Below the pieces are notes generated by a model. The model did no database searches and was not told the origin of the DNA. It was given only the letters and a program-made list of their open reading frames with translations. The translations under genes and the position numbers were made by a program. DNA of 40,341 bases from a virus (lineage: Duplodnaviria; Heunggongvirae; Uroviricota; Caudoviricetes), in IMG/VR virus record IMGVR_UViG_2619619135_000001, positions 1 to 40,341 of that record, one strand, 5' to 3'. This document shows, piece by piece, positions 7,339 through 27,365 of this stretch. How positions within the stretch are numbered: position 1 is the first letter of the stretch; each line of letters opens with the position of its first letter.

Positions 7339-7753
7339 GCGTTATCGCACTCCACAGATCATCAAAAGAAATCATTACCGGTCCGTCACGACGCCAGAGA
7401 GTGATACTGTTACCCAGTTCATTAATCCCGGTGCGGCGGATATCCAGATCAATACGGGACACCACGCCGTCATCAATCATCCATTGCAGGCATTCGCGGA
7501 TATACCCCCTTACCGTCTGCACCAGCTGATTGGTCAGTTTGCTGCGCTGAAGCAGCCACAGTCGGGAGCCGTAACGGTCATTCTGTACCGCAGGCCAGGT
7601 ATCCCCCCACCATCCCATCGGGACGTCGGCGTTGTCATCAGGCCCCGCCCGCCGCCAGGTAAACAGGGAAATCACCACGGCGCGGGTCAGCGGATCCAGC
7701 GGTGCGCTGGCGCAGGTGCGTTTACCGTTCACCGTCAACCACAGTTCCATCAT
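7325..7753 (-). CDS. Baseplate protein (Mu gp46 / gpW-gp25-like)
   Basis: 142-aa ORF in the conserved position; its stop overlaps the next start. Confidence 0.5.
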   Translation of the reverse strand: MMELWLTVNGKRTCASAPLDPLTRAVVISLFTWRRAGPDDNADVPMGWWGDTWPAVQNDRYGSRLWLLQRSKLTNQLVQTVRGYIRECLQWMIDDGVVSRIDLDIRRTGINELGNSITLWRRDGPVMISFDDLWSAITHGGQ

Positions 7754-9377: not shown

Positions 9378-10702
9378 TGCACTGGCACCTTCAGAGGGAT
9401 CACCGGCACAAAGCCGGGATGTGTAATGGCATTGCGCCGGATAATGTCCGCGTCACGCGCCGCGTTATCAAACCAGGTCGCCGCCAGCACCAGCGCGGGT
9501 AAAACCTCATCCGGCGTACGCTGAATGATCCGCGCAGACTGTTCAAGGCGCGTGTTGATATCCGCATTCAGATCTGCTTTCACCCGGCGCAGCGCCAGAA
9601 ACAGCACATCACTGGTTGTACGGGACAACTCCTTATCAATTGCCGTATTCAGTGTGTCGCGAATGTCGGTCAGTTCTTCCCACGTTGGCAGGTCAACCGT
9701 GTTTTTCACCGCCGGTGCATTGTTCAGTGCCGGATGCGTGACGGAAGGCCAGCCGGTGCTCTGCGCGGGTGTTGTTGACTGCCCCACTGCGGCATTCTGC
9801 ATCACCGCGGAAGTTGTTGGCGCAGGCAATCGGGTAACGGCATACGCCGCTTCGCTGATTGCAGTCGTACGAAGGGTGCTGGCAACCACGTTACGCTGCT
9901 GCGTCGCTGTGGCGGTGGTTTTACTGTCCGTTTTCCAGACACCGCGCGGTTGCAGATCGCTGCCGAGGCTGACACCGGAAAGCGTTTTGATCATGGTGAC
10001 CAGGTCGCTGGCGTTACCATAAAGGCGCTTCCCGGTACGCCACATTTTCTGCACCTGCTCAACGAAATTTTTGCCTGACGATGGCGGCGGCAGAAGTACC
10101 GAGATATCCCCCTGCAACAGCCTGGCGGCATCCGATACAGCAGAATCCACCACTTTCATCGCATCAGAAACATACCCCAGCATTATGCTGGCATTACCGA
10201 TAACGTCGTTCTGCACAAAATCTGCCACGCCATCGATACTGAAACCACTGAAACTGTCACTGATGCAGTCATCCAGTGCAGAACAGGATGACATCAGCGT
10301 CTGCGCCGTCGCCGCACCTGATGTGGGGTAAGAGAGTTCTCCCGCTTCGACAAACTTCAGGTCAAAGCGGACAATACGCCCTTCACTCTTCGATGTGCTG
10401 ACCCGAACCTCCCCGTCAACACAGACTTTCAGCTCACCGTATGTCGGATGGACAAGCGTGCCGGGACCGGGTTTATTCAGCGCGTCAATCAGGCGATCGC
10501 GCTGGTCAAAGCAGTCATCTCCCACCACATAAGCTGTGATGGACGGGCGGAAAGTGACTTTTCCCAGATCTTCGGTATAGGGCTTGTCGCGGTTCGGGTA
10601 TTCATGTGTTTCCACACGGCGACCGGTTCCCGCACTTTCTTCTTCAACCTTAAACGGTACGCCGCGAAATGACGCATCCTGAAGCCTGCCTTTCCACGTC
10701 AT
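9374..10702 (-). CDS. Tail protein, Mu gp43 (DNA circularisation protein N)-like
   Basis: 442-aa ORF downstream of the tape measure gene; family from memory. Confidence 0.55.
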   Translation of the reverse strand: MTWKGRLQDASFRGVPFKVEEESAGTGRRVETHEYPNRDKPYTEDLGKVTFRPSITAYVVGDDCFDQRDRLIDALNKPGPGTLVHPTYGELKVCVDGEVRVSTSKSEGRIVRFDLKFVEAGELSYPTSGAATAQTLMSSCSALDDCISDSFSGFSIDGVADFVQNDVIGNASIMLGYVSDAMKVVDSAVSDAARLLQGDISVLLPPPSSGKNFVEQVQKMWRTGKRLYGNASDLVTMIKTLSGVSLGSDLQPRGVWKTDSKTTATATQQRNVVASTLRTTAISEAAYAVTRLPAPTTSAVMQNAAVGQSTTPAQSTGWPSVTHPALNNAPAVKNTVDLPTWEELTDIRDTLNTAIDKELSRTTSDVLFLALRRVKADLNADINTRLEQSARIIQRTPDEVLPALVLAATWFDNAARDADIIRRNAITHPGFVPVIPLKVPVQ

Positions 10703-10713
10703 ATAAACTCCGG

Positions 10714-10775
10714 ATACAAAAAACCCGCCAAATCTGCTTTGTCAGTTATTTACATCGCAGAAGATGTGGCGGGGT
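10714..10775 (-). terminator. Candidate intrinsic terminator after the secreted-protein moron
   Basis: Seen (minus strand): CCGCCAcATCT...AGATtTGGCGG imperfect stem with a loop of about 21 nt, followed by TTTTTTG. The long loop lowers confidence. Confidence 0.35.
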
Positions 10776-10792
10776 TCTAATATTTTCAATTA

Positions 10793-11287
10793 CTATCTGA
10801 GTTGAACATCAATGGAATAAACATTACCACTCTTTATAAATTTAGAGTCCGTCCTTTCATCAAAGGATTCAAATGACTGTACCTTTGAAAACTTTTTCAT
10901 TTTATTTTCAAAAATACTTTCATTAACACCAGTTAAATACTTGAATGCTCTACCAGCAAGGACCTCATTACTTAAAGTTTGTGTGTTTTTATTGTCCTTG
11001 AAAAACCAAATAATAACCTTTTGTGGACATGATGGATTATAAACAGATATATAAAACTGCGGCTCATATTTTTCATCAGCATCATCGCCAAGCATTTCTT
11101 CAAAAGACAATTCTCTCCTGAATTCATATTGACGCTTAGTTATTCCTTCATCCTTTACTATCTCTTGCTTAACTGGTGCAATACCTATAGAAGAGATTAA
11201 TTCTGACTCATTAAAGCTGAACTTACACTCTTCCGCTGCCAAGTTAAAAGATAAAAGTGCAGATATAAAAAACACAAAGATACGCAT
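10793..11287 (-). CDS. Secreted protein of unknown function (AT-rich moron in the tail operon)
   Basis: Seen: signal-peptide-like N-terminus MRIFVFFISALLSFNLA|AEE; AAGGG SD 6 nt before the third ATG; a TATAAT element upstream; codon usage is visibly more AT-rich than the neighbours. Confidence 0.6.
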   Translation of the reverse strand: MRIFVFFISALLSFNLAAEECKFSFNESELISSIGIAPVKQEIVKDEGITKRQYEFRRELSFEEMLGDDADEKYEPQFYISVYNPSCPQKVIIWFFKDNKNTQTLSNEVLAGRAFKYLTGVNESIFENKMKKFSKVQSFESFDERTDSKFIKSGNVYSIDVQLR

Positions 11288-11386
11288 AATCATCCCTTCA
11301 ATCATTTGTAAGGAATGATTATATTAACTACTTAAAGTTGAAAACCCAAATTATGCCAGACAAAAACACATTAATCATTTTGTACA

Positions 11387-13219
11387 CTACCTGAACCGCG
11401 TATAGCCAACATCATGGCTGACATCAATACCGCTGGATCGCGTTTCCATAACCCGCATACCTGGTGGCATATTCACAAAAGATACCTTGATCTCACCATC
11501 AACTTTTGGCGCAGAAGCTTTGTTAATCATGAAGGGATTCGGGCCTGTGGCACCGGAGGCGTTGTTTGCCTGAGCCGGATCCACCTCCGGATAAGGAGTG
11601 TATCCCCGTGGCGGTATTCCCGTCCCATAAGCATCATAAGCACCCGCGCCCCACTGCGCCGAGTTAATGGCATCGACCGTGTCACCGGAACTGTCGGTAA
11701 ACCATTCAATAATCGGCTTCAGCTTATCCCACATATCCTGAAACCACTTAACAACCGGTCCCCAGTTATTGATCACCATCCCCAGCGGCGACCAGGCAAA
11801 AACCTTCTTAAGAAGTTCCCAGCCAGTCTCAAAATAAGGACCAATGGTTTCCCAGAGTTTCTTAAAATAAGGTCCGACAACATCCCAGTTAGTGATAATT
11901 AATCCCGCAGCCAGGGCTATCGCCGTCGCAATCATGCCAATCGGCGTCATCGACATGATCCTGCTGACAATACTGATGGCACTGCCCACGCCCATCAATC
12001 CCAGTTTCAGAATCGCAAGACCGGCAGCAAGCCCGACGACGCCGCGAATAACCCGGGGATTTTCATCCGCAAACTTCGTGAATTTCTCCCCCAACTCCCC
12101 CAGCCATTGCGTGATGTTCTTAGCGTCACCAGAAAATGCGCCGCCAATAGCCGCAAGGCCGTTAGTTGCGGTCCCCGTCATTGCCTCCCACAGGTTGGAC
12201 AGCGTACCAAGCTGAGCCTGAACACGTTTATTCAGGCTGGCCTGTTTATTCATCTTCTGCTGGATCTGATCGTAGCCATCCTTTCCTTTATCGATCAGCG
12301 CATTGACCACCTGAAGGGTTTCGGCATCATCACCAAATATTGCCTTAAGTACACCGGTTCGCTTAACGTCGGTAAGTTTTCGCAGCTTTGCCAGTTGCTT
12401 AAACATGTTATCAAGACCGCCAAAACTTCCTTTGCCGTCAGTAAAATCGAGCTGTACCCCGAGTTTCTGACGGGCCATAACTTTATTGACGTCCCTGATT
12501 TTCTTAACGCTTAATCCGGACTGGATAACTTTTCGCAGGGCATTACCTGCCGACTCCCCGTTCATCCCCATCTGATCCATCATGACGCTGATGGGGGCAA
12601 GGCTCTGTGCAGCCTGAAGACCGTCCTTGTTCACCATCTTCAGAACAGAGCTGGTTTTAGTGAAGAAGGACAACATGTTGGTATCGTCAACGCCCAGATA
12701 AAACGCCTTCTGGATAGTGTCGAACAGCCCCATCATGTCTTCTGACGCCGTTCCGGTAGCATCCTGCATCTTTGCGGCAAACTCAGCAGCCGCTTCCGGT
12801 GTTTTTTTCAGTTGTACCGCAAGAAAAGCTGTCGCTTTACCCACACCGCCAAGAATGTTTTCTGCCGGGATCCCCTGACGCACCAGCATCTGCATCATGT
12901 TCTGAAAATCAGCTGTTGTACCGGGTAGCTGGTTACCCAGGCCAATAGCCAGTTTATTGATGTCCTGAAAGCTCTTTCCAACCTCGCCGTTCGCATCCAT
13001 CATGGCGACTTTCAGCCCGGTGGCGGCGTTTTCCTGATCGGCATAAGATTTCAGGGAAAGCGTCAGACCCGCTGCCAGTCCGCCACCAAGCGCCAGCCCA
13101 CCCTGTGACGCTTCTTCCGCCTGGCGTTTAAATCCCCGGATTTTCTTTTGCATTTTCGACAGCGCGGGAGAAAGCCTGTCGACACCGGTGATCAACGCCT
13201 TAAGCTCAAATTCAGCCAT
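11387..13219 (-). CDS. Tail tape measure protein
   Basis: 610-aa ORF, Gly/Ala-rich with hydrophobic segments, immediately downstream of the frameshifting chaperone pair. Confidence 0.8.
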   Translation of the reverse strand: MAEFELKALITGVDRLSPALSKMQKKIRGFKRQAEEASQGGLALGGGLAAGLTLSLKSYADQENAATGLKVAMMDANGEVGKSFQDINKLAIGLGNQLPGTTADFQNMMQMLVRQGIPAENILGGVGKATAFLAVQLKKTPEAAAEFAAKMQDATGTASEDMMGLFDTIQKAFYLGVDDTNMLSFFTKTSSVLKMVNKDGLQAAQSLAPISVMMDQMGMNGESAGNALRKVIQSGLSVKKIRDVNKVMARQKLGVQLDFTDGKGSFGGLDNMFKQLAKLRKLTDVKRTGVLKAIFGDDAETLQVVNALIDKGKDGYDQIQQKMNKQASLNKRVQAQLGTLSNLWEAMTGTATNGLAAIGGAFSGDAKNITQWLGELGEKFTKFADENPRVIRGVVGLAAGLAILKLGLMGVGSAISIVSRIMSMTPIGMIATAIALAAGLIITNWDVVGPYFKKLWETIGPYFETGWELLKKVFAWSPLGMVINNWGPVVKWFQDMWDKLKPIIEWFTDSSGDTVDAINSAQWGAGAYDAYGTGIPPRGYTPYPEVDPAQANNASGATGPNPFMINKASAPKVDGEIKVSFVNMPPGMRVMETRSSGIDVSHDVGYTRFR

Positions 13220-13394
13220 GTGTGCGTTTCTCCTGCTCTATCCTGTTTGCCTGACTGACCAGCAAGGGAATTTCACTGATCGGCATATTCAGCAATTCGA
13301 AGGGATTAATGCGCCAGTAGCTGGCGCAGTCAAAGAAGCGATCAGTGAGGTATTCAGCCGTCAGGCCTGGAGGAAAAAACCAGCCACAAGCCAC
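13212..13394 (-). CDS. Tail assembly chaperone -1 frameshift extension (G-T / E-E' type fusion)
   Basis: Seen: this -1 frame ORF overlaps the chaperone 3' end, has no independent ATG/SD, and ends at the tape measure start. Slippery site T-TTT-TTC at 13373-13379 (minus strand). Confidence 0.5.
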   Translation of the reverse strand: MACGWFFPPGLTAEYLTDRFFDCASYWRINPFELLNMPISEIPLLVSQANRIEQEKRTHG

Positions 13395-13630
13395 GCCGCT
13401 GCATTCAGGTCTGCCGGAGACATCTGGTCGACAGAGCTTTGCGGCACTTTCGCCAGCCGCACAATGTATTTCGATACCACATGCGCCAGAAGTCTGACGG
13501 ACTCATCCTGATTCATCTGGTAGGGATACCCCAGCTCGCGGACATCTTTCCCGGTGGGCTCATCAAACTCCAGTACGGAGAGTGTCTCGCCATGAGCGGT
13601 AATCGGTTTCTTTAACTCAAGCTCTTTCAT
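13361..13630 (-). CDS. Tail assembly chaperone (zero-frame product)
   Basis: 89-aa ORF between the tube and tape measure genes; it contains a TTTTTTC slippery heptamer 4 codons before its stop. Confidence 0.65.
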   Translation of the reverse strand: MKELELKKPITAHGETLSVLEFDEPTGKDVRELGYPYQMNQDESVRLLAHVVSKYIVRLAKVPQSSVDQMSPADLNAAAWLVAGFFLQA

Positions 13631-13986
13631 TACTGGTAATCCCCTTCTTCACCGTGGAACTCAAGATCGACCGTGCCTTCTTCGGCATTATGGTTCGCTT
13701 CGCCGTGCAGCCAGGCAGACGACAGTACATAGACCTGACCGTTCGCCAGCTCGGCAGTGATGGTCATCTCATCAGACGAGGTGATTTTGCTCACCGGAAA
13801 ATTCTTCGGCACCTTGAAGGTCCCTTTGACATAAGGCGCACGGTGAGTTTCCTTGCGGTCCACTGAACCGTCCAGGCCGATGATGTCATCATTGACCGTC
13901 CTGTTCATGGGCACCTCAATGCCGCCGGTCAGCGATAGCTGCTGACCGTCAATTTTGAAATAACAGGTTCCCCCGATACGGGCCAT
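13630..13986 (-). CDS. Tail tube protein
   Basis: 118-aa ORF directly downstream of the sheath gene, with an overlapping stop/start. Confidence 0.7.
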   Translation of the reverse strand: MARIGGTCYFKIDGQQLSLTGGIEVPMNRTVNDDIIGLDGSVDRKETHRAPYVKGTFKVPKNFPVSKITSSDEMTITAELANGQVYVLSSAWLHGEANHNAEEGTVDLEFHGEEGDYQ

Positions 13987-15482
13987 TATGCAGACTCCTC
14001 TGAATACTGAAGACGGAACTGGTTAACCACTGCAAAGACACGCAACTGGTTAACATAGTCAGGCGGGAACAGCGTGTTCAGGCGGTTCGGATCGCTGGCA
14101 TCACGCTCCACAACCAGGTACTGCTTAAACAGTTCGTAGTTTTCCACGATCCCCGCACGCTCAAGCTGACGGTAGGTTGCCAGCAGTTCCCCTTTGATCA
14201 CCGCCGGGGTGACAATCGCCTGACCGGGACCAAAGCGGGTACCGTCACTGGCAAGCTTGTGACGCCCGTACTTACTGGTAATGACGGATTTCAGTTTGCG
14301 CAGCACATACGCGCTGGTATGCAGCGTCTCGCTGTCGAGGTAGCTGTTATCCGCAACACCGTAAGCGTTTTTCCTGTACGTGGTGACATCACGCTGAATG
14401 CGCAGCACCCCGCTTTCGACATACGCCGTTGCCACGCCATGAGACAGCAGGGTCTGTTGTTCGGTCATCGTGAACCGTTTCCCCTTCGGCGCAGGCAGCA
14501 TACCCACCAGCTCACCGGTCTGTGTGGGACGTGCCGGATCGTTGCGAATAAACACCGCTGCGCGGGCGGTACGGCTTGCCGCCAGCTCGTCGGCAGGCGT
14601 CTGGGTCTCTTTTTCGTACCCCGCCAGGGTAATGTGCTGCTGGTTAAACTGGTCACCTGCGGTCACAAGTTCTGACAGCGTGCCGATCTTTGCCGTATAC
14701 ACATGACCATACAGCTGACGCGCATAGCTCCAGCGACCGCTGGTATCGTTCATCTCGGTCACCAGCGTGTTAACGGAGGCCGTGTCGTTGAACGGCAGGC
14801 CGATATAATCAAACGGCTCATCCGCCATTGCAGCCACCGCGCCGGTGAGAACCGGAGCACCCGTTCCGGCGGTACCCGTCGCCACGGCAATCTGTACGCC
14901 CGCTGGCAGCACTTCGCCCCCACCAAAGCCGTAGTAATTGAGGCTGACAGGAATTTCATTCCCGCAAAGCCCCTTATGACGCGCGGTCAGTGTGACCACG
15001 CCTGCCGAAGATGAAGCCGTAAACGGCAGGGTCGGAACGGCATTGATGGCATCCTGGATACTGCTGGCAATCATCGTGACGTTATCGCCGTTAGTCACCG
15101 GTGCCTGCACGCGGGTACGTCCCACATACACATTCACCGTGCCGGTTTCGGTTGCCGCCCCGGTCACCGTCAGCGTAACCGTTGCCGCCGCGCCGGTGGA
15201 TTCAGGAACGGCAATCACATACAGCTCGCCAAACGGGTCAGTCTGGCGATAAGCCTCGACCATACGCGCCAGCTGACTTCCCGCACCACAAATCTGGCGT
15301 GCATAGTCTGCCGACGGCATCAGTACCAGACTGTTGGCAACAATCTCTGCACCGTTATTGGCATGACCAATCAGCAGCGATGCTCCGCTGTCCTGTGCAG
15401 TATTCGCCGCCTGGTTATCCATTTCCGCATAAAACAGCGGAACCAGCGTATTCGACGGAATGGTGTTAAAGCTTATCGTCAT
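13986..15482 (-). CDS. Contractile tail sheath protein
   Basis: 498-aa ORF in the sheath-tube-chaperone-tape-measure order. Confidence 0.8.
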   Translation of the reverse strand: MTISFNTIPSNTLVPLFYAEMDNQAANTAQDSGASLLIGHANNGAEIVANSLVLMPSADYARQICGAGSQLARMVEAYRQTDPFGELYVIAVPESTGAAATVTLTVTGAATETGTVNVYVGRTRVQAPVTNGDNVTMIASSIQDAINAVPTLPFTASSSAGVVTLTARHKGLCGNEIPVSLNYYGFGGGEVLPAGVQIAVATGTAGTGAPVLTGAVAAMADEPFDYIGLPFNDTASVNTLVTEMNDTSGRWSYARQLYGHVYTAKIGTLSELVTAGDQFNQQHITLAGYEKETQTPADELAASRTARAAVFIRNDPARPTQTGELVGMLPAPKGKRFTMTEQQTLLSHGVATAYVESGVLRIQRDVTTYRKNAYGVADNSYLDSETLHTSAYVLRKLKSVITSKYGRHKLASDGTRFGPGQAIVTPAVIKGELLATYRQLERAGIVENYELFKQYLVVERDASDPNRLNTLFPPDYVNQLRVFAVVNQFRLQYSEESA

Positions 15483-26210: not shown

Positions 26211-27365
26211 TTGTCCCCAACAAAAACGAAAAAAATGCCAAACCTAAAAATCAACCACGTTATTGTTCACGAGCTATTAAAAGAGAAAGATAAAGATTTT
26301 GACCACTCGAAACGATACAACCTGCGTGATTCTGAACTTGATAAAACAAACGCTGTTGTAATTTCCCTTGTTGAAGGGGTCGTTGCTCTTTATGGCTCTA
26401 AAGGCAACTCAGCACATTACGGTGTATTCAAAAGCGCCCCAAAAGAACAAGGTCCAATCCCGGTATTATTTGATCAGTATCACCAAACAGCAACTTCTCA
26501 ATCTATTGACTTTATTAACTTAACAAAGAAAATAATGGAACAAATGTATCATTCAGCCAAATCTCAATCTTGGTCTTCTGGAGGATACATTGTTTTTACT
26601 GATTATATTTCAGCAGGCATCAGATATTTTCTTGTAGCTATGATAAAAAAAACGAATGGAGTAACAATTAGCGAAAAACTCGAGCCAGAAGAAATGATAC
26701 ATCTGGAGTTAAATAATATTAACCAAGCTGCAAAAATAAATTTTCACTTATACTATCAATATCACCAAGCTGATGATGTTCAAAAAACAGAATTAAGCTA
26801 CTTAAGCTTCATCAACAAAACTACGGGACAGTCTGCTGCTGCATATTTCATCGCAGCTCTTGGGTGTGATAAGGGGATCGCATCAGCTGGAGCAACCCGC
26901 AAACTTCCAAATGAGGTAAAAAAGTTTTTTAAAAAACACAAAGAATTACGCCCTCATGCAAATGCAGTAAGAAACGCAGTAATAAAATATTTAGAATCCC
27001 AGTTCGGAAACAATTGCTCTGCAAAGCTTACAGATATTGAATCTATTTCTGCAACTCACATGGCATTTTTAGATGATGATAAAAAAGCCCCCCTAGTAAG
27101 AGAGCTCATGCAATATTTAAACAGCGAGGAGGTTAGAGTTCCTTCGGAGTTCGTCATAAATAAAACATCTCTTGACAAATTAAGGAATGTTATTTTCAAA
27201 GCAGATCAATATAGTTTTAATTTCGACAAAGATTTGCTTGGCATAACTACTGATGCTACAATTTTCTATGACGCTGAGCATGGGAATCTTACATTTAACA
27301 GACTCCCTATAGAAGCACAAAAAAAAATAAAAGATGCCTTAAAAGAAATGAATTTGTTAAACTGA
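26211..27365 (+). CDS. NdpA/YejK (NA37)-family nucleoid-associated protein homologue, moron gene A
   Basis: Seen: AT-rich ORF on the opposite strand to the late genes; track start is TTG at 26211, alternative ATG at 26235. Motifs match NdpA as I recall it: INHVIVHELLK, GGYIVFTDYISAGIRYFLVAMIK, SYLSFINKTTGQSAAAYFIAALG. Confidence 0.65.
   Translation: MSPTKTKKMPNLKINHVIVHELLKEKDKDFDHSKRYNLRDSELDKTNAVVISLVEGVVALYGSKGNSAHYGVFKSAPKEQGPIPVLFDQYHQTATSQSIDFINLTKKIMEQMYHSAKSQSWSSGGYIVFTDYISAGIRYFLVAMIKKTNGVTISEKLEPEEMIHLELNNINQAAKINFHLYYQYHQADDVQKTELSYLSFINKTTGQSAAAYFIAALGCDKGIASAGATRKLPNEVKKFFKKHKELRPHANAVRNAVIKYLESQFGNNCSAKLTDIESISATHMAFLDDDKKAPLVRELMQYLNSEEVRVPSEFVINKTSLDKLRNVIFKADQYSFNFDKDLLGITTDATIFYDAEHGNLTFNRLPIEAQKKIKDALKEMNLLN

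What the first reader, a model, noticed from the sequence alone, without database searches (positions are those of the whole stretch)
13212..13630. Programmed -1 ribosomal frameshift (T-TTT-TTC) in the tail assembly chaperone upstream of the tape measure gene
Seen: the 89-aa chaperone ORF contains the heptamer T-TTT-TTC at 13373-13379 (minus strand), four codons before its stop. A -1 shift there continues for 53 more codons (FFPPGLTAEYLTDRFFDC...) and ends at the tape measure start. The downstream frame has no ATG or SD of its own. Known: this matches lambda G/GT and P2 E/E' frameshift chaperones.
Basis: partly seen in the sequence, partly recalled or inferred. Interest (0 to 1): 0.45.

Follow-up and report, generated by a model that had tools for sequence, protein, structure and literature searches.

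The report
Unannotated frameshift in prophage tail chaperone
A small tail-assembly gene of an SfV-type E. coli/Shigella prophage almost certainly makes a second, longer protein when some ribosomes slip back one base on a run of T's. This is the same trick proven in phage P2, so it is ordinary biology, but no public record examined here for this phage group annotates it.

Summary
On the minus strand, the 89-aa chaperone gene (13630..13361, Pfam PF10109) carries T_TTT_TTC at 13379..13373 in X_XXY_YYZ register. The -1 frame stays open for 55 codons, and its TGA (13214..13212) overlaps the tape-measure ATG (13219).

Comparison with relatives makes this much more than chance:
- 35 of 38 related bacterial loci and 6 phages keep an in-register T_TTT_TTY and a 52-61-codon -1 ORF ending at the tape-measure start.
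- The -1 ORF changes mostly synonymously (23 synonymous vs 3 nonsynonymous codon changes in one pair; 1 vs 22 in another frame).
- 28 of 37 distinct sequences have no start codon for the -1 ORF.
- Synonymous variation drops to zero exactly at GGT TTT TTC.
- The predicted 139-aa fusion aligns with P2 E+E' over both domains (hhalign E 3e-6), with the slip sites aligned.

I found no downstream stimulatory structure and no conserved upstream SD-like sequence.

None of the 11 GenBank, RefSeq or PGAP records examined annotates the fusion. About 1,086 of 5,426 complete E. coli genomes carry the locus.

Verdict: a real, conserved, unannotated member of the known tail-chaperone frameshift class. Low novelty, modest annotation value.

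The parts
13361..13630 (-). Tail assembly chaperone gene, short product (gpE-like, 89 aa). Its ATG overlaps the tube gene stop by 1 nt (TAATG).
   Evidence: ORF and translation. Pfam PF10109 Phage_TAC_7, E 1.9e-16, 60 bits against a cutoff of 25. Annotated 'phage tail assembly protein' by PGAP.
13373..13379 (-). Slippery heptamer T_TTT_TTC in X_XXY_YYZ register (0-frame GGT TTT TTC).
   Evidence: Sequence. T_TTT_TTY is invariant in 37 of 37 distinct relatives. The X position is T in all 37 although the preceding codon encodes G, R, N, S or V; background T at third positions is 23%. Synonymous variability is 0.00 here against about 0.5-0.8 in flanking codons.
13212..13379 (-). -1 frame extension (E'-like): 55 codons plus TGA. 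It is read only after the shift. Predicted fusion is 139 aa = residues 1-86 of the chaperone + PPGLTAEY...RTHG.
   Evidence: Translation. Conserved as protein across clades. Synonymous changes far exceed nonsynonymous ones in this frame only. Matches phrog_32181 'unknown function' at E 3e-41, meaning others have called it as a stand-alone ORF.
13392..13394 (-). GTG in the -1 frame, 15 nt upstream of the heptamer. It is not a conserved start codon.
   Evidence: Used as a start in ON470584. 28 of 37 distinct relatives have no ATG, GTG or TTG at all between the upstream -1-frame stop and the heptamer.
11387..13219 (-). Tape measure protein gene (610 aa). Its ATG (13219..13217) overlaps the E' stop (ATGGCTGA). 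Its own SD, AGGAG at 13234..13230, lies inside E'.
   Evidence: ORF. PF10145 PhageMin_Tail, E 1.2e-25. Sequence.
13630..13986 (-). Tail tube gene (118 aa), immediately upstream.
   Evidence: PF10618 Tail_tube, E 2.4e-33.
13986..15482 (-). Tail sheath gene (498 aa).
   Evidence: PF04984, PF17482 and PF17481.
13310..13328 (-). Hairpin UGCGCCAG-CUA-CUGGCGCA, 44 nt after the heptamer. Probably not part of the frameshift signal; listed because it is the only local structure that is conserved.
   Evidence: all 8 stem pairs kept in 12 of 14 close relatives, but with 0 compensatory changes. There is a local dip in synonymous variation at codons 18-23 of E'. The corresponding SfIV/ST64B/YeP1 sequence (peptide ...NVAWFWK...) is not palindromic; this site was not folded in those relatives.

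Best explanation
This is a programmed -1 ribosomal frameshift in the tail assembly chaperone gene of an SfV-type myovirus prophage.

Most ribosomes read GGT TTT TTC CTC CAG GCC TGA and release the 89-aa chaperone. A minority shift instead. With tRNA-Phe on UUU in the P site and on UUC in the A site, both tRNAs slip back one base and re-pair with U_UU and U_UU. The ribosome then continues with CCU CCA GGC... for 53 more codons and stops on the TGA that overlaps the tape-measure ATG. The product is a 139-aa fusion with junction ...LVAGFF|PPGLTAEY...

By analogy with P2 E/E+E' and lambda G/GT, the shared N-terminal domain would coat the tape measure protein. The rarer C-terminal E'-like domain would recruit tube subunits so that the tail polymerises around the tape measure. 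Neither protein would end up in the virion, and the fixed ratio would be set by slip efficiency.

Shown here:
- the signal, its register and its conservation;
- protein-coding selection on the -1 ORF;
- absence of independent initiation;
- homology to P2 E+E'.

Inferred, not shown:
- that the shift is ribosomal rather than transcriptional;
- its efficiency;
- the roles of the two products.
For: 1. Anatomy. An in-register T_TTT_TTC lies 4 codons before the stop of a PF10109 chaperone gene between tube and tape measure. The -1 ORF of 55 codons ends on ATGGCTGA at the tape-measure start.

2. Conservation.
- Six annotated phages keep the arrangement: EPP-1, AH07, SfIV, phiP27, ST64B and YeP1.
- So do 35 of 38 loci from the GTDB genome scan, reaching Derxia and Methylococcales. 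All have T_TTT_TTC or T_TTT_TTT in the same register and a 52-61-codon -1 ORF ending at or overlapping the tape-measure start.
- The 0-frame tail after the heptamer varies from 3 to 26 codons and is not conserved.
- The 3 exceptions are in insect-symbiont genomes. They still hold the T run but carry indels.

3. Coding selection in the stretch read only in the -1 frame.
- Window vs L013 (81% nt identity): 23 synonymous and 3 nonsynonymous codon changes in the -1 frame, against 1/22 and 1/21 in the other two frames.
- Differences by -1-frame codon position: 556, 330 and 1112.

4. No independent start. 28 of 37 distinct sequences have no start codon upstream of the heptamer in the -1 frame.

5. 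Nucleotide-level selection at the site.
- Synonymous variability is 0.74-0.81 at codons -3 to -1 and 0.00 at GGT, TTT and TTC/CCT.
- X is T in 37 of 37 sequences against a 23% background.
- The first Phe codon is TTT in 37 of 37 against 38:26 TTT:TTC elsewhere.

6. Homology to a proven case.
- A profile of 19 fusions against a profile of 11 P2-type E+E' proteins gives probability 88% and E 3e-6 over 118 columns spanning both domains, with the GF slip position aligned.
- P2 is annotated with a -1 frameshift at TTTTTTG, E 91 aa, E+E' 142 aa, and E' ending 8 nt into gene T (PMC3091744).

7. Motif competence (PMC4066793). H_HH.U_UU.Y heptamers are among the most shift-prone in E. coli. Measured values there: UUUUUUC 0.12% alone and 7.6% with a pseudoknot; UUUUUUU 0.33% and 10.2%.
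Against: - There is no direct protein evidence for this phage group.
- No stimulatory element was found. Folding the 53-93 nt downstream gives z-scores from -1.8 to +0.9 across relatives, with no shared structure at 5-9 nt. The alignment fold found 0 compensatory pairs. There is no Rfam match, no upstream dip in synonymous variation and no conserved SD.
- The bare heptamer gave only about 0.12% in an E. coli reporter. So the native efficiency is either low or depends on something I did not identify.
- The sequence cannot distinguish ribosomal slippage from RNA polymerase stuttering on the T6/T7 run. Both give the same protein.
- The E' part does not reach Pfam PF06528 (P2 GpE) by hmmscan.
- The AlphaFold model was too poor to use (pLDDT 50.6).
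Confidence: 0.85

Rival explanations
1. The same fusion protein arises by transcriptional slippage. RNA polymerase stutters on the template run of 6-7 A's and adds one extra U to a fraction of the mRNAs. Ordinary translation of those mRNAs then yields the 139-aa protein.
For: The conserved element is a homopolymer: T6 in the window clade, T7 in the SfIV/ST64B/YeP1 clade and T8 in one locus. Every constraint I measured (invariant X=T, invariant TTT) is also what a need for run length would predict. PMC4066793 notes that UUUUUUU is under-represented in all three frames of E. coli genes, possibly because of transcriptional slippage.
Against: From my own knowledge (Baranov et al. 2005, not read here), E. 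coli RNA polymerase slips appreciably only on runs of about 8-9 or more. Here the run is 6 in the window clade and in P2. There is no trend toward longer runs: 20 of the 37 distinct sequences have T6 followed by C. The run is always in the exact X_XXY_YYZ register, and Z is always a pyrimidine, the class that works best for A-site tRNA-Phe re-pairing. The homologous P2 event is described in the literature as translational (PMC3091744, PMC5009743).
Confidence: 0.08
2. The -1 ORF is a separate small gene of about 60 aa, translated from its own start (the GTG at 13394), as annotated in ON470584 and grouped in phrog_32181. No recoding is involved.
For: A GTG exists 15 nt upstream of the heptamer in the window. 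One GenBank record annotates a 60-aa 'hypothetical protein' from it. PHROGs holds a 63-position family for this ORF.
Against: The GTG arises at a synonymous position before the Trp codon and is not conserved. 28 of 37 distinct relatives have no ATG, GTG or TTG at all in the -1 frame between the preceding stop and the heptamer. In several relatives that open stretch is only 5-10 codons. By eye there is no AGGAG-like SD in the 20 nt before the GTG (context).
Confidence: 0.02
3. The heptamer and the open -1 frame are coincidental. The 141-nt stretch between chaperone and tape measure is untranslated spacer, which is how PGAP and most GenBank records leave it.
For: TTTTTTC alone is not rare in the window: 18 seen against 11 expected. 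PGAP, RefSeq and most GenBank records annotate nothing there.
Against: The codon-position pattern and the synonymous/nonsynonymous contrast are specific to the -1 frame. The peptide is conserved across clades that share only 30-40% identity. The ORF length is kept at 52-61 codons, always ending at the tape-measure start. It is homologous to P2 E'.
Confidence: 0.01

Closest known systems
Phage P2 gpE / gpE+E' (-1 frameshift on T_TTT_TTG in the FETUD tail operon; Christie et al. 2002; Xu, Hendrix & Duda 2004)
   Same: - N-terminal domain in the same Pfam family (PF10109).
- Gene lies between the tube and tape-measure genes.
- U6-type heptamer in the same register, at the aligned 'G-F' position near the end of the short ORF.
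- Product sizes 89/139 aa against 91/142 aa.
- The extension stop overlaps the tape-measure ATG by 8 nt in both.
- Full-length profile-profile match, E 3e-6.
- No downstream hairpin in either (PMC3091744).
   Different: - Z is C here (T in the sister clade) against G in P2.
- The E' part does not reach PF06528 by hmmscan and is only about 22% identical.
- The surrounding tail module is Mu-like (PF07157 DNA circulation, Mu gpP domains), not P2-like.
- NCBI annotates P2-type fusions as 'GpE family phage tail protein' but not this group.
Phage lambda gpG / gpGT (-1 frameshift on G_GGA_AAG; Levin et al. 1993; Xu et al. 2013, 2014)
   Same: - Same logic and position: a chaperone gene just upstream of the tape measure.
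- A low-frequency -1 shift near its end gives a C-terminally extended form.
- No stimulatory RNA structure is needed (my recollection of Levin et al. 1993, not read here).
- Lambda supplies the functional model: the G part binds the tape measure, the T part binds the tube protein, and the ratio is about 30:1 (PMC5009743).
   Different: - No detectable sequence similarity; no lambda-type chaperone family appears in the Pfam scan.
- A different heptamer and different tRNAs (Gly/Lys against Phe/Phe).
- Lambda has a non-contractile tail.
Phage Mu gp41 tail assembly chaperone (-2 frameshift; Xu et al. 2004, as cited in PMC5009743)
   Same: - The neighbouring genes (sheath, tube, DNA circulation, gpP baseplate hub) are Mu-type.
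- Mu gp41 occupies the same slot and weakly matches PF10109 (24.7 bits, just under the cutoff).
   Different: - Mu gp41 is 144 aa and belongs to PF23746, which the window protein does not hit.
- Mu's extension lies in the +1/-2 frame after a G-rich site, not after a T run (PMC5009743).

Membership tests
Programmed -1 ribosomal frameshift site (tandem-slippage type) | X_XXY_YYZ heptamer in register with the upstream (0) frame | tested here: met
   0-frame GG[T TTT TTC] at 13379..13373. Same register in all 37 distinct relatives.
Programmed -1 ribosomal frameshift site (tandem-slippage type) | -1 ORF that is protein-coding, extends past the 0-frame stop and has no initiation signal of its own | tested here: met
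   Open for 55 codons. Synonymous changes far exceed nonsynonymous ones in the -1 frame only. No start codon in 28 of 37 relatives.
Programmed -1 ribosomal frameshift site (tandem-slippage type) | Conservation of the heptamer at synonymous positions | tested here: met
   Synonymous variability is 0.00 at the heptamer codons against 0.74-0.81 just upstream. X=T in 37 of 37 against a 23% background.
Programmed -1 ribosomal frameshift site (tandem-slippage type) | Stimulatory element: downstream hairpin or pseudoknot at about 5-9 nt, or upstream SD-like sequence. Common, but not obligatory in phage chaperone cases. | tested here: not met
   No significant or shared fold. No Rfam match. No upstream dip in synonymous variation. 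An SD-like GGGAGG occurs only in a few relatives such as L021.
Programmed -1 ribosomal frameshift site (tandem-slippage type) | Trans-frame protein detected, and the shift shown to occur at translation rather than transcription | not testable with these tools
   Needs mass spectrometry, reporter assays or cDNA sequencing.
P2 gpE / gpE+E' tail chaperone pair | N-terminal domain belongs to PF10109 (Phage_TAC_7) | tested here: met
   60.3 bits against a cutoff of 25. P2 E+E' itself scores 47.8 bits.
P2 gpE / gpE+E' tail chaperone pair | C-terminal trans-frame domain belongs to PF06528 (Phage_P2_GpE) | tested here: inconclusive
   No hmmscan hit even at E <= 1. However, the profile-profile alignment covers the E' region (AVIFHWPPSELY aligned to A.FWRINPLELL), overall E 3e-6 and probability 88%.
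P2 gpE / gpE+E' tail chaperone pair | Gene located between the tail tube and tape-measure genes, with the extension ending in overlap with the tape-measure start | tested here: met
   for the window; for P2. The overlap is 8 nt in both.
P2 gpE / gpE+E' tail chaperone pair | Both products essential for tail assembly and absent from virions | not testable with these tools
   Genetic and proteomic experiment needed.
Mu gp41 chaperone (-2 frameshift) | PF23746 Gp41_Mu domain, with the extension in the -2/+1 frame | tested here: not met
   PF23746 is not among the window protein's hits. The extension is in the -1 frame. Mu's extension is in the other frame.

The most novel reading that the evidence does not exclude
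The site may depend on a stimulator of a kind not yet described for phage chaperone frameshifts.

The bare UUUUUUC heptamer gives only about 0.12% shifting in E. coli reporters. P2's UUUUUUG gives a similar 0.12% in reporters, yet the review cited (PMC5009743) puts native P2-type frameshifting at 2-3 times lambda's roughly 1-in-30 level. No nearby RNA structure or SD is conserved in either group.

Candidates are the conserved nascent peptide ending ...[LIV][VI]xGF[FL], and, in the window clade, the hairpin 44 nt downstream (13328..13310). That hairpin shows reduced synonymous variation.
Probability: 0.12. Interest if true: 0.5.

Novelty: new member of a known kind. Interest (0 to 1): 0.22.

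Why it matters
The main value is for annotation. This prophage family occurs in about one in five complete E. coli genomes: 1,086 of 5,426. It includes the Shigella serotype-converting phages SfI, SfII, SfIV and SfV, the Stx phage phiP27 and Salmonella ST64B.

All 11 records I examined, PGAP included, omit a probably essential tail protein. Either 141 nt is left blank or a spurious 60-aa ORF is called. Adding a ribosomal-slippage rule for PF10109 genes with T_TTT_TTY, as already exists in effect for P2-type genes, would fix thousands of records.

It also gives a clean natural series for asking why these heptamers shift efficiently without a recognisable stimulator: Z is C, T or G, and the 0-frame tail runs from 3 to 26 codons.

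It does not change understanding of tail assembly.

Tried and rejected
1. Downstream stimulatory structure.
- Single-sequence folds were run on 53-93 nt after the heptamer in the window, 8 relatives and P2.
- An RNAalifold was run on 14 relatives.
- Nothing significant or shared lies at the usual spacing.
- The only conserved hairpin is 44 nt away, has no compensatory changes and, judging from the aligned sequence, has no counterpart in the sister clade. I rejected it as the stimulator.

2. Rfam scan of 13000..13800 at E <= 1. Only a chance CRISPR-DR hit on the other strand.

3. Upstream SD-like stimulator. No conserved motif and no dip in synonymous variation upstream.

4. IMG/VR scan. It returned 80 near-identical loci and added no diversity. 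The GTDB genome scan was the useful one.

5. Search for an already annotated fusion protein. The only 137-139-aa hits are garbled singletons from short contigs, probably homopolymer or assembly errors.

6. Structure.
- AlphaFold2 of the fusion with a 15-sequence alignment gave pLDDT 50.6. That is too poor to use, so I ran no fold search.
- A PDB sequence search found nothing relevant.

7. NCBIfam has no model for either the fusion or the extension.

8. Literature.
- Christie et al. 2002 (PMC135442) and the SfV genome paper (PMC134923) are not held.
- No accessible paper describing this group's frameshift was found.
- I could not check whether Xu et al. 2004 listed SfV.
Full report
WHAT IS THERE

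On the minus strand the window carries a contractile-tail module:
- sheath, 15482..13986 (PF04984, PF17482, PF17481);
- tube, 13986..13630 (PF10618);
- an 89-aa ORF, 13630..13361 (PF10109 'tail assembly chaperone E/41/14', 60 bits against a cutoff of 25);
- tape measure, 13219..11387 (PF10145);
- a DNA-circulation protein and a Mu gpP-type baseplate hub.

The DNA is 99% identical to Shigella phages SfI, SfV and SfII and to E. coli phage 689R6. It occurs in 1,086 of 5,426 complete E. coli genomes. The window also holds a lambda-type integrase, so it is an SfV-type prophage.

CHECK OF THE OBSERVATION

All coordinates hold.
- TTTTTTC is at 13379..13373.
- The 0-frame codons are GGT TTT TTC, so the register is X_XXY_YYZ. 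After them come CTC CAG GCC TGA.
- The -1 frame from 13379 reads FFPPGLTAEYLTDRFFDCASYWRINPFELLNMPISEIPLLVSQANRIEQEKRTHG and stops at TGA 13214..13212. That stop overlaps the tape-measure ATG at 13219 (ATGGCTGA).
- The tape measure has its own AGGAG at 13234..13230, inside the extension.

One correction is needed. The -1 frame does contain a GTG at 13394, which one GenBank record uses as a start, and an internal ATG at 13286. Neither is conserved.

The motif alone is weak evidence. TTTTTTC occurs 18 times in the window against 11 expected. Of 44 in-register XXXYYYZ heptamers in long ORFs of the window, only 2 have a -1 extension of 55 codons or more, and only 3 pass the 0-frame stop.

COMPARATIVE EVIDENCE

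I fetched six annotated phages with diverged versions: EPP-1, AH07, SfIV, phiP27, ST64B and YeP1. I also fetched 38 loci from one-genome-per-species bacterial assemblies.

Conservation of the arrangement:
- 35 of the 38 loci and all six phages have T_TTT_TTC or T_TTT_TTT in the same register, followed by a -1 ORF of 52-61 codons. That ORF ends at, or a few bases into, the tape-measure gene.
- The set reaches beyond Enterobacterales to Derxia, a Methylococcales MAG and uncultured proteobacteria.
- The 0-frame tail after the heptamer varies from 3 to 26 codons and is not conserved.
- The -1 peptide is conserved, with invariant F85, F86, A103, P110, A128 and R130, even where the N-terminal domains are about 30-40% identical.
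- The three exceptions are in insect-symbiont genomes (Pantoea bathycoeliae and two Arsenophonus loci). They keep the T7 run but carry indels, as expected for decaying prophages.

Coding selection in the stretch read only in the -1 frame:
- Window vs L013 (81% nt identity): 23 synonymous and 3 nonsynonymous codon changes in the -1 frame, against 1/22 and 1/21 in the other two frames.
- Pairwise differences by -1-frame codon position are 556, 330 and 1112.

Independent initiation and nucleotide-level selection:
- 28 of 37 distinct sequences have no ATG, GTG or TTG in the -1 frame between the preceding stop and the heptamer. This excludes independent initiation as the general mechanism.
- Synonymous variability is normal (0.74-0.81) in the three codons before the site and exactly 0 at GGT, TTT and TTC/CCT.
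- The base at X is T in 37 of 37 sequences although the codon holding it encodes G, R, N, S or V. The background for T at third positions is 23%.
- The first Phe codon is always TTT, against 38:26 TTT:TTC elsewhere.

RELATION TO KNOWN CASES

P2.
- P2 (NC_001895) is annotated with E (91 aa) and E+E' (142 aa, joined CDS, 'site of -1 translational frameshift'). The heptamer is TTTTTTG in the same register, and E' ends 8 nt into gene T (PMC3091744).
- P2 E+E' matches PF10109 plus PF06528. The window fusion matches only PF10109.
- A profile of 19 SfV-type fusions against a profile of 11 P2-type E+E' proteins aligns 118 columns across both domains. The G-F slip position is aligned. Probability is 88% and E is 3e-6.
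- So this is the same ancestral recoding site in a diverged lineage.

Mu.
- Mu shares the rest of the tail module. Its gp41 is a different family (PF23746) and, according to the review PMC5009743, uses a -2 shift. Its extension lies in the other frame.

Lambda.
- Lambda G/GT is an analogue only.

MECHANISM

The best reading is tandem -1 slippage of two tRNA-Phe on U_UUU_UUC. This gives the 139-aa fusion with junction ...AGFF|PPGL...

H_HH.U_UU.Y heptamers are in the most shift-prone class in E. coli (PMC4066793).

I found no stimulator:
- no significant or shared downstream fold;
- no Rfam match;
- no conserved upstream SD and no upstream dip in synonymous variation.

This matches what is reported for P2 (PMC3091744).

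In reporters the bare UUUUUUC gives about 0.12% and UUUUUUG about 0.12%. The review PMC5009743 puts P2-type native frameshifting at two to three times lambda's roughly 1-in-30 level. My recollection of Christie et al. 2002 is about 10%; I could not read that paper. The gap between reporter and native values is unexplained. It is the only part of this locus with research interest.

Transcriptional stuttering on the T6 run would give the same protein and cannot be excluded from sequence. I rate it unlikely because the run is short and shows no tendency to lengthen.

ANNOTATION STATUS

- None of the 11 records inspected annotates slippage.
- PGAP leaves 141 nt blank.
- PHROGs files the extension as phrog_32181, 'unknown function'.
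- Among the best hits in 5.8 billion protein clusters the 89-aa form dominates, and no correct fusion exists.
- P2-type fusions, in contrast, are annotated as 'GpE family phage tail protein'.

VERDICT

This is an ordinary, strongly conserved and so far unannotated member of the well-known tail-chaperone frameshift class, orthologous to P2 E/E+E'. Novelty is low, and the practical value is in annotation.

Noticed in passing
window 10700..11400 (ORF 11305..10793, minus strand): A segment of about 650 bp at 32-35% GC lies between the tape-measure and DNA-circulation genes; the flanks are about 52% GC. It encodes a 170-aa protein with a hydrophobic, signal-like N-terminus and no Pfam or PADLOC match. 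It is present in phage SKA5 (95.8% identity) but absent at this position from SfV, SfI, SfII and 689R6. It looks like a moron-type insertion.
   Followed up: partly
window 13328..13310, minus strand: An 8-bp GC-rich hairpin (UGCGCCAG-CUA-CUGGCGCA) lies 44 nt after the slip site, over the conserved DCASYWRI codons. It is kept in 12 of 14 close relatives and shows a local dip in synonymous variation (TGC 15/15, TAC 13/13). There are no compensatory changes, and the corresponding sequence in the SfIV/ST64B clade is not palindromic. Its purpose is unknown, and it is too far away to be a canonical stimulator.
   Followed up: partly
window + strand 27320, 39602 and 7666: Three other in-register slippery heptamers have a -1 frame that runs past the 0-frame stop. 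A_AAA_AAA lies 12 codons before the end of an NA37-family nucleoid-associated protein gene (26211..27365). G_GGA_AAA lies 7 codons before the end of the integrase gene (38505..39632). G_GGA_AAT is at 7666. They are probably incidental.
   Followed up: no
L041, L044, L047 (Pantoea bathycoeliae and Arsenophonus symbiont genomes): Decaying copies of the locus keep the T7 run but have indels. L041 would need a +1 shift. L044 is fused in frame and then broken further downstream. L047 is broken in several places.
   Followed up: partly
PHROGs phrog_32181; GenBank ON470584 (L001 2107..2289): The trans-frame extension has been catalogued as a free-standing protein family of unknown function, built from GTG-start miscalls.
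   Followed up: yes
L015, L019, L025-L027, L039, L042: Some relatives have two overlapping in-register heptamers, G_GGT_TTT followed by T_TTT_TTY. This gives a 10-nt slippery tract. The window itself has GCT GGT, so it has only one.
   Followed up: no
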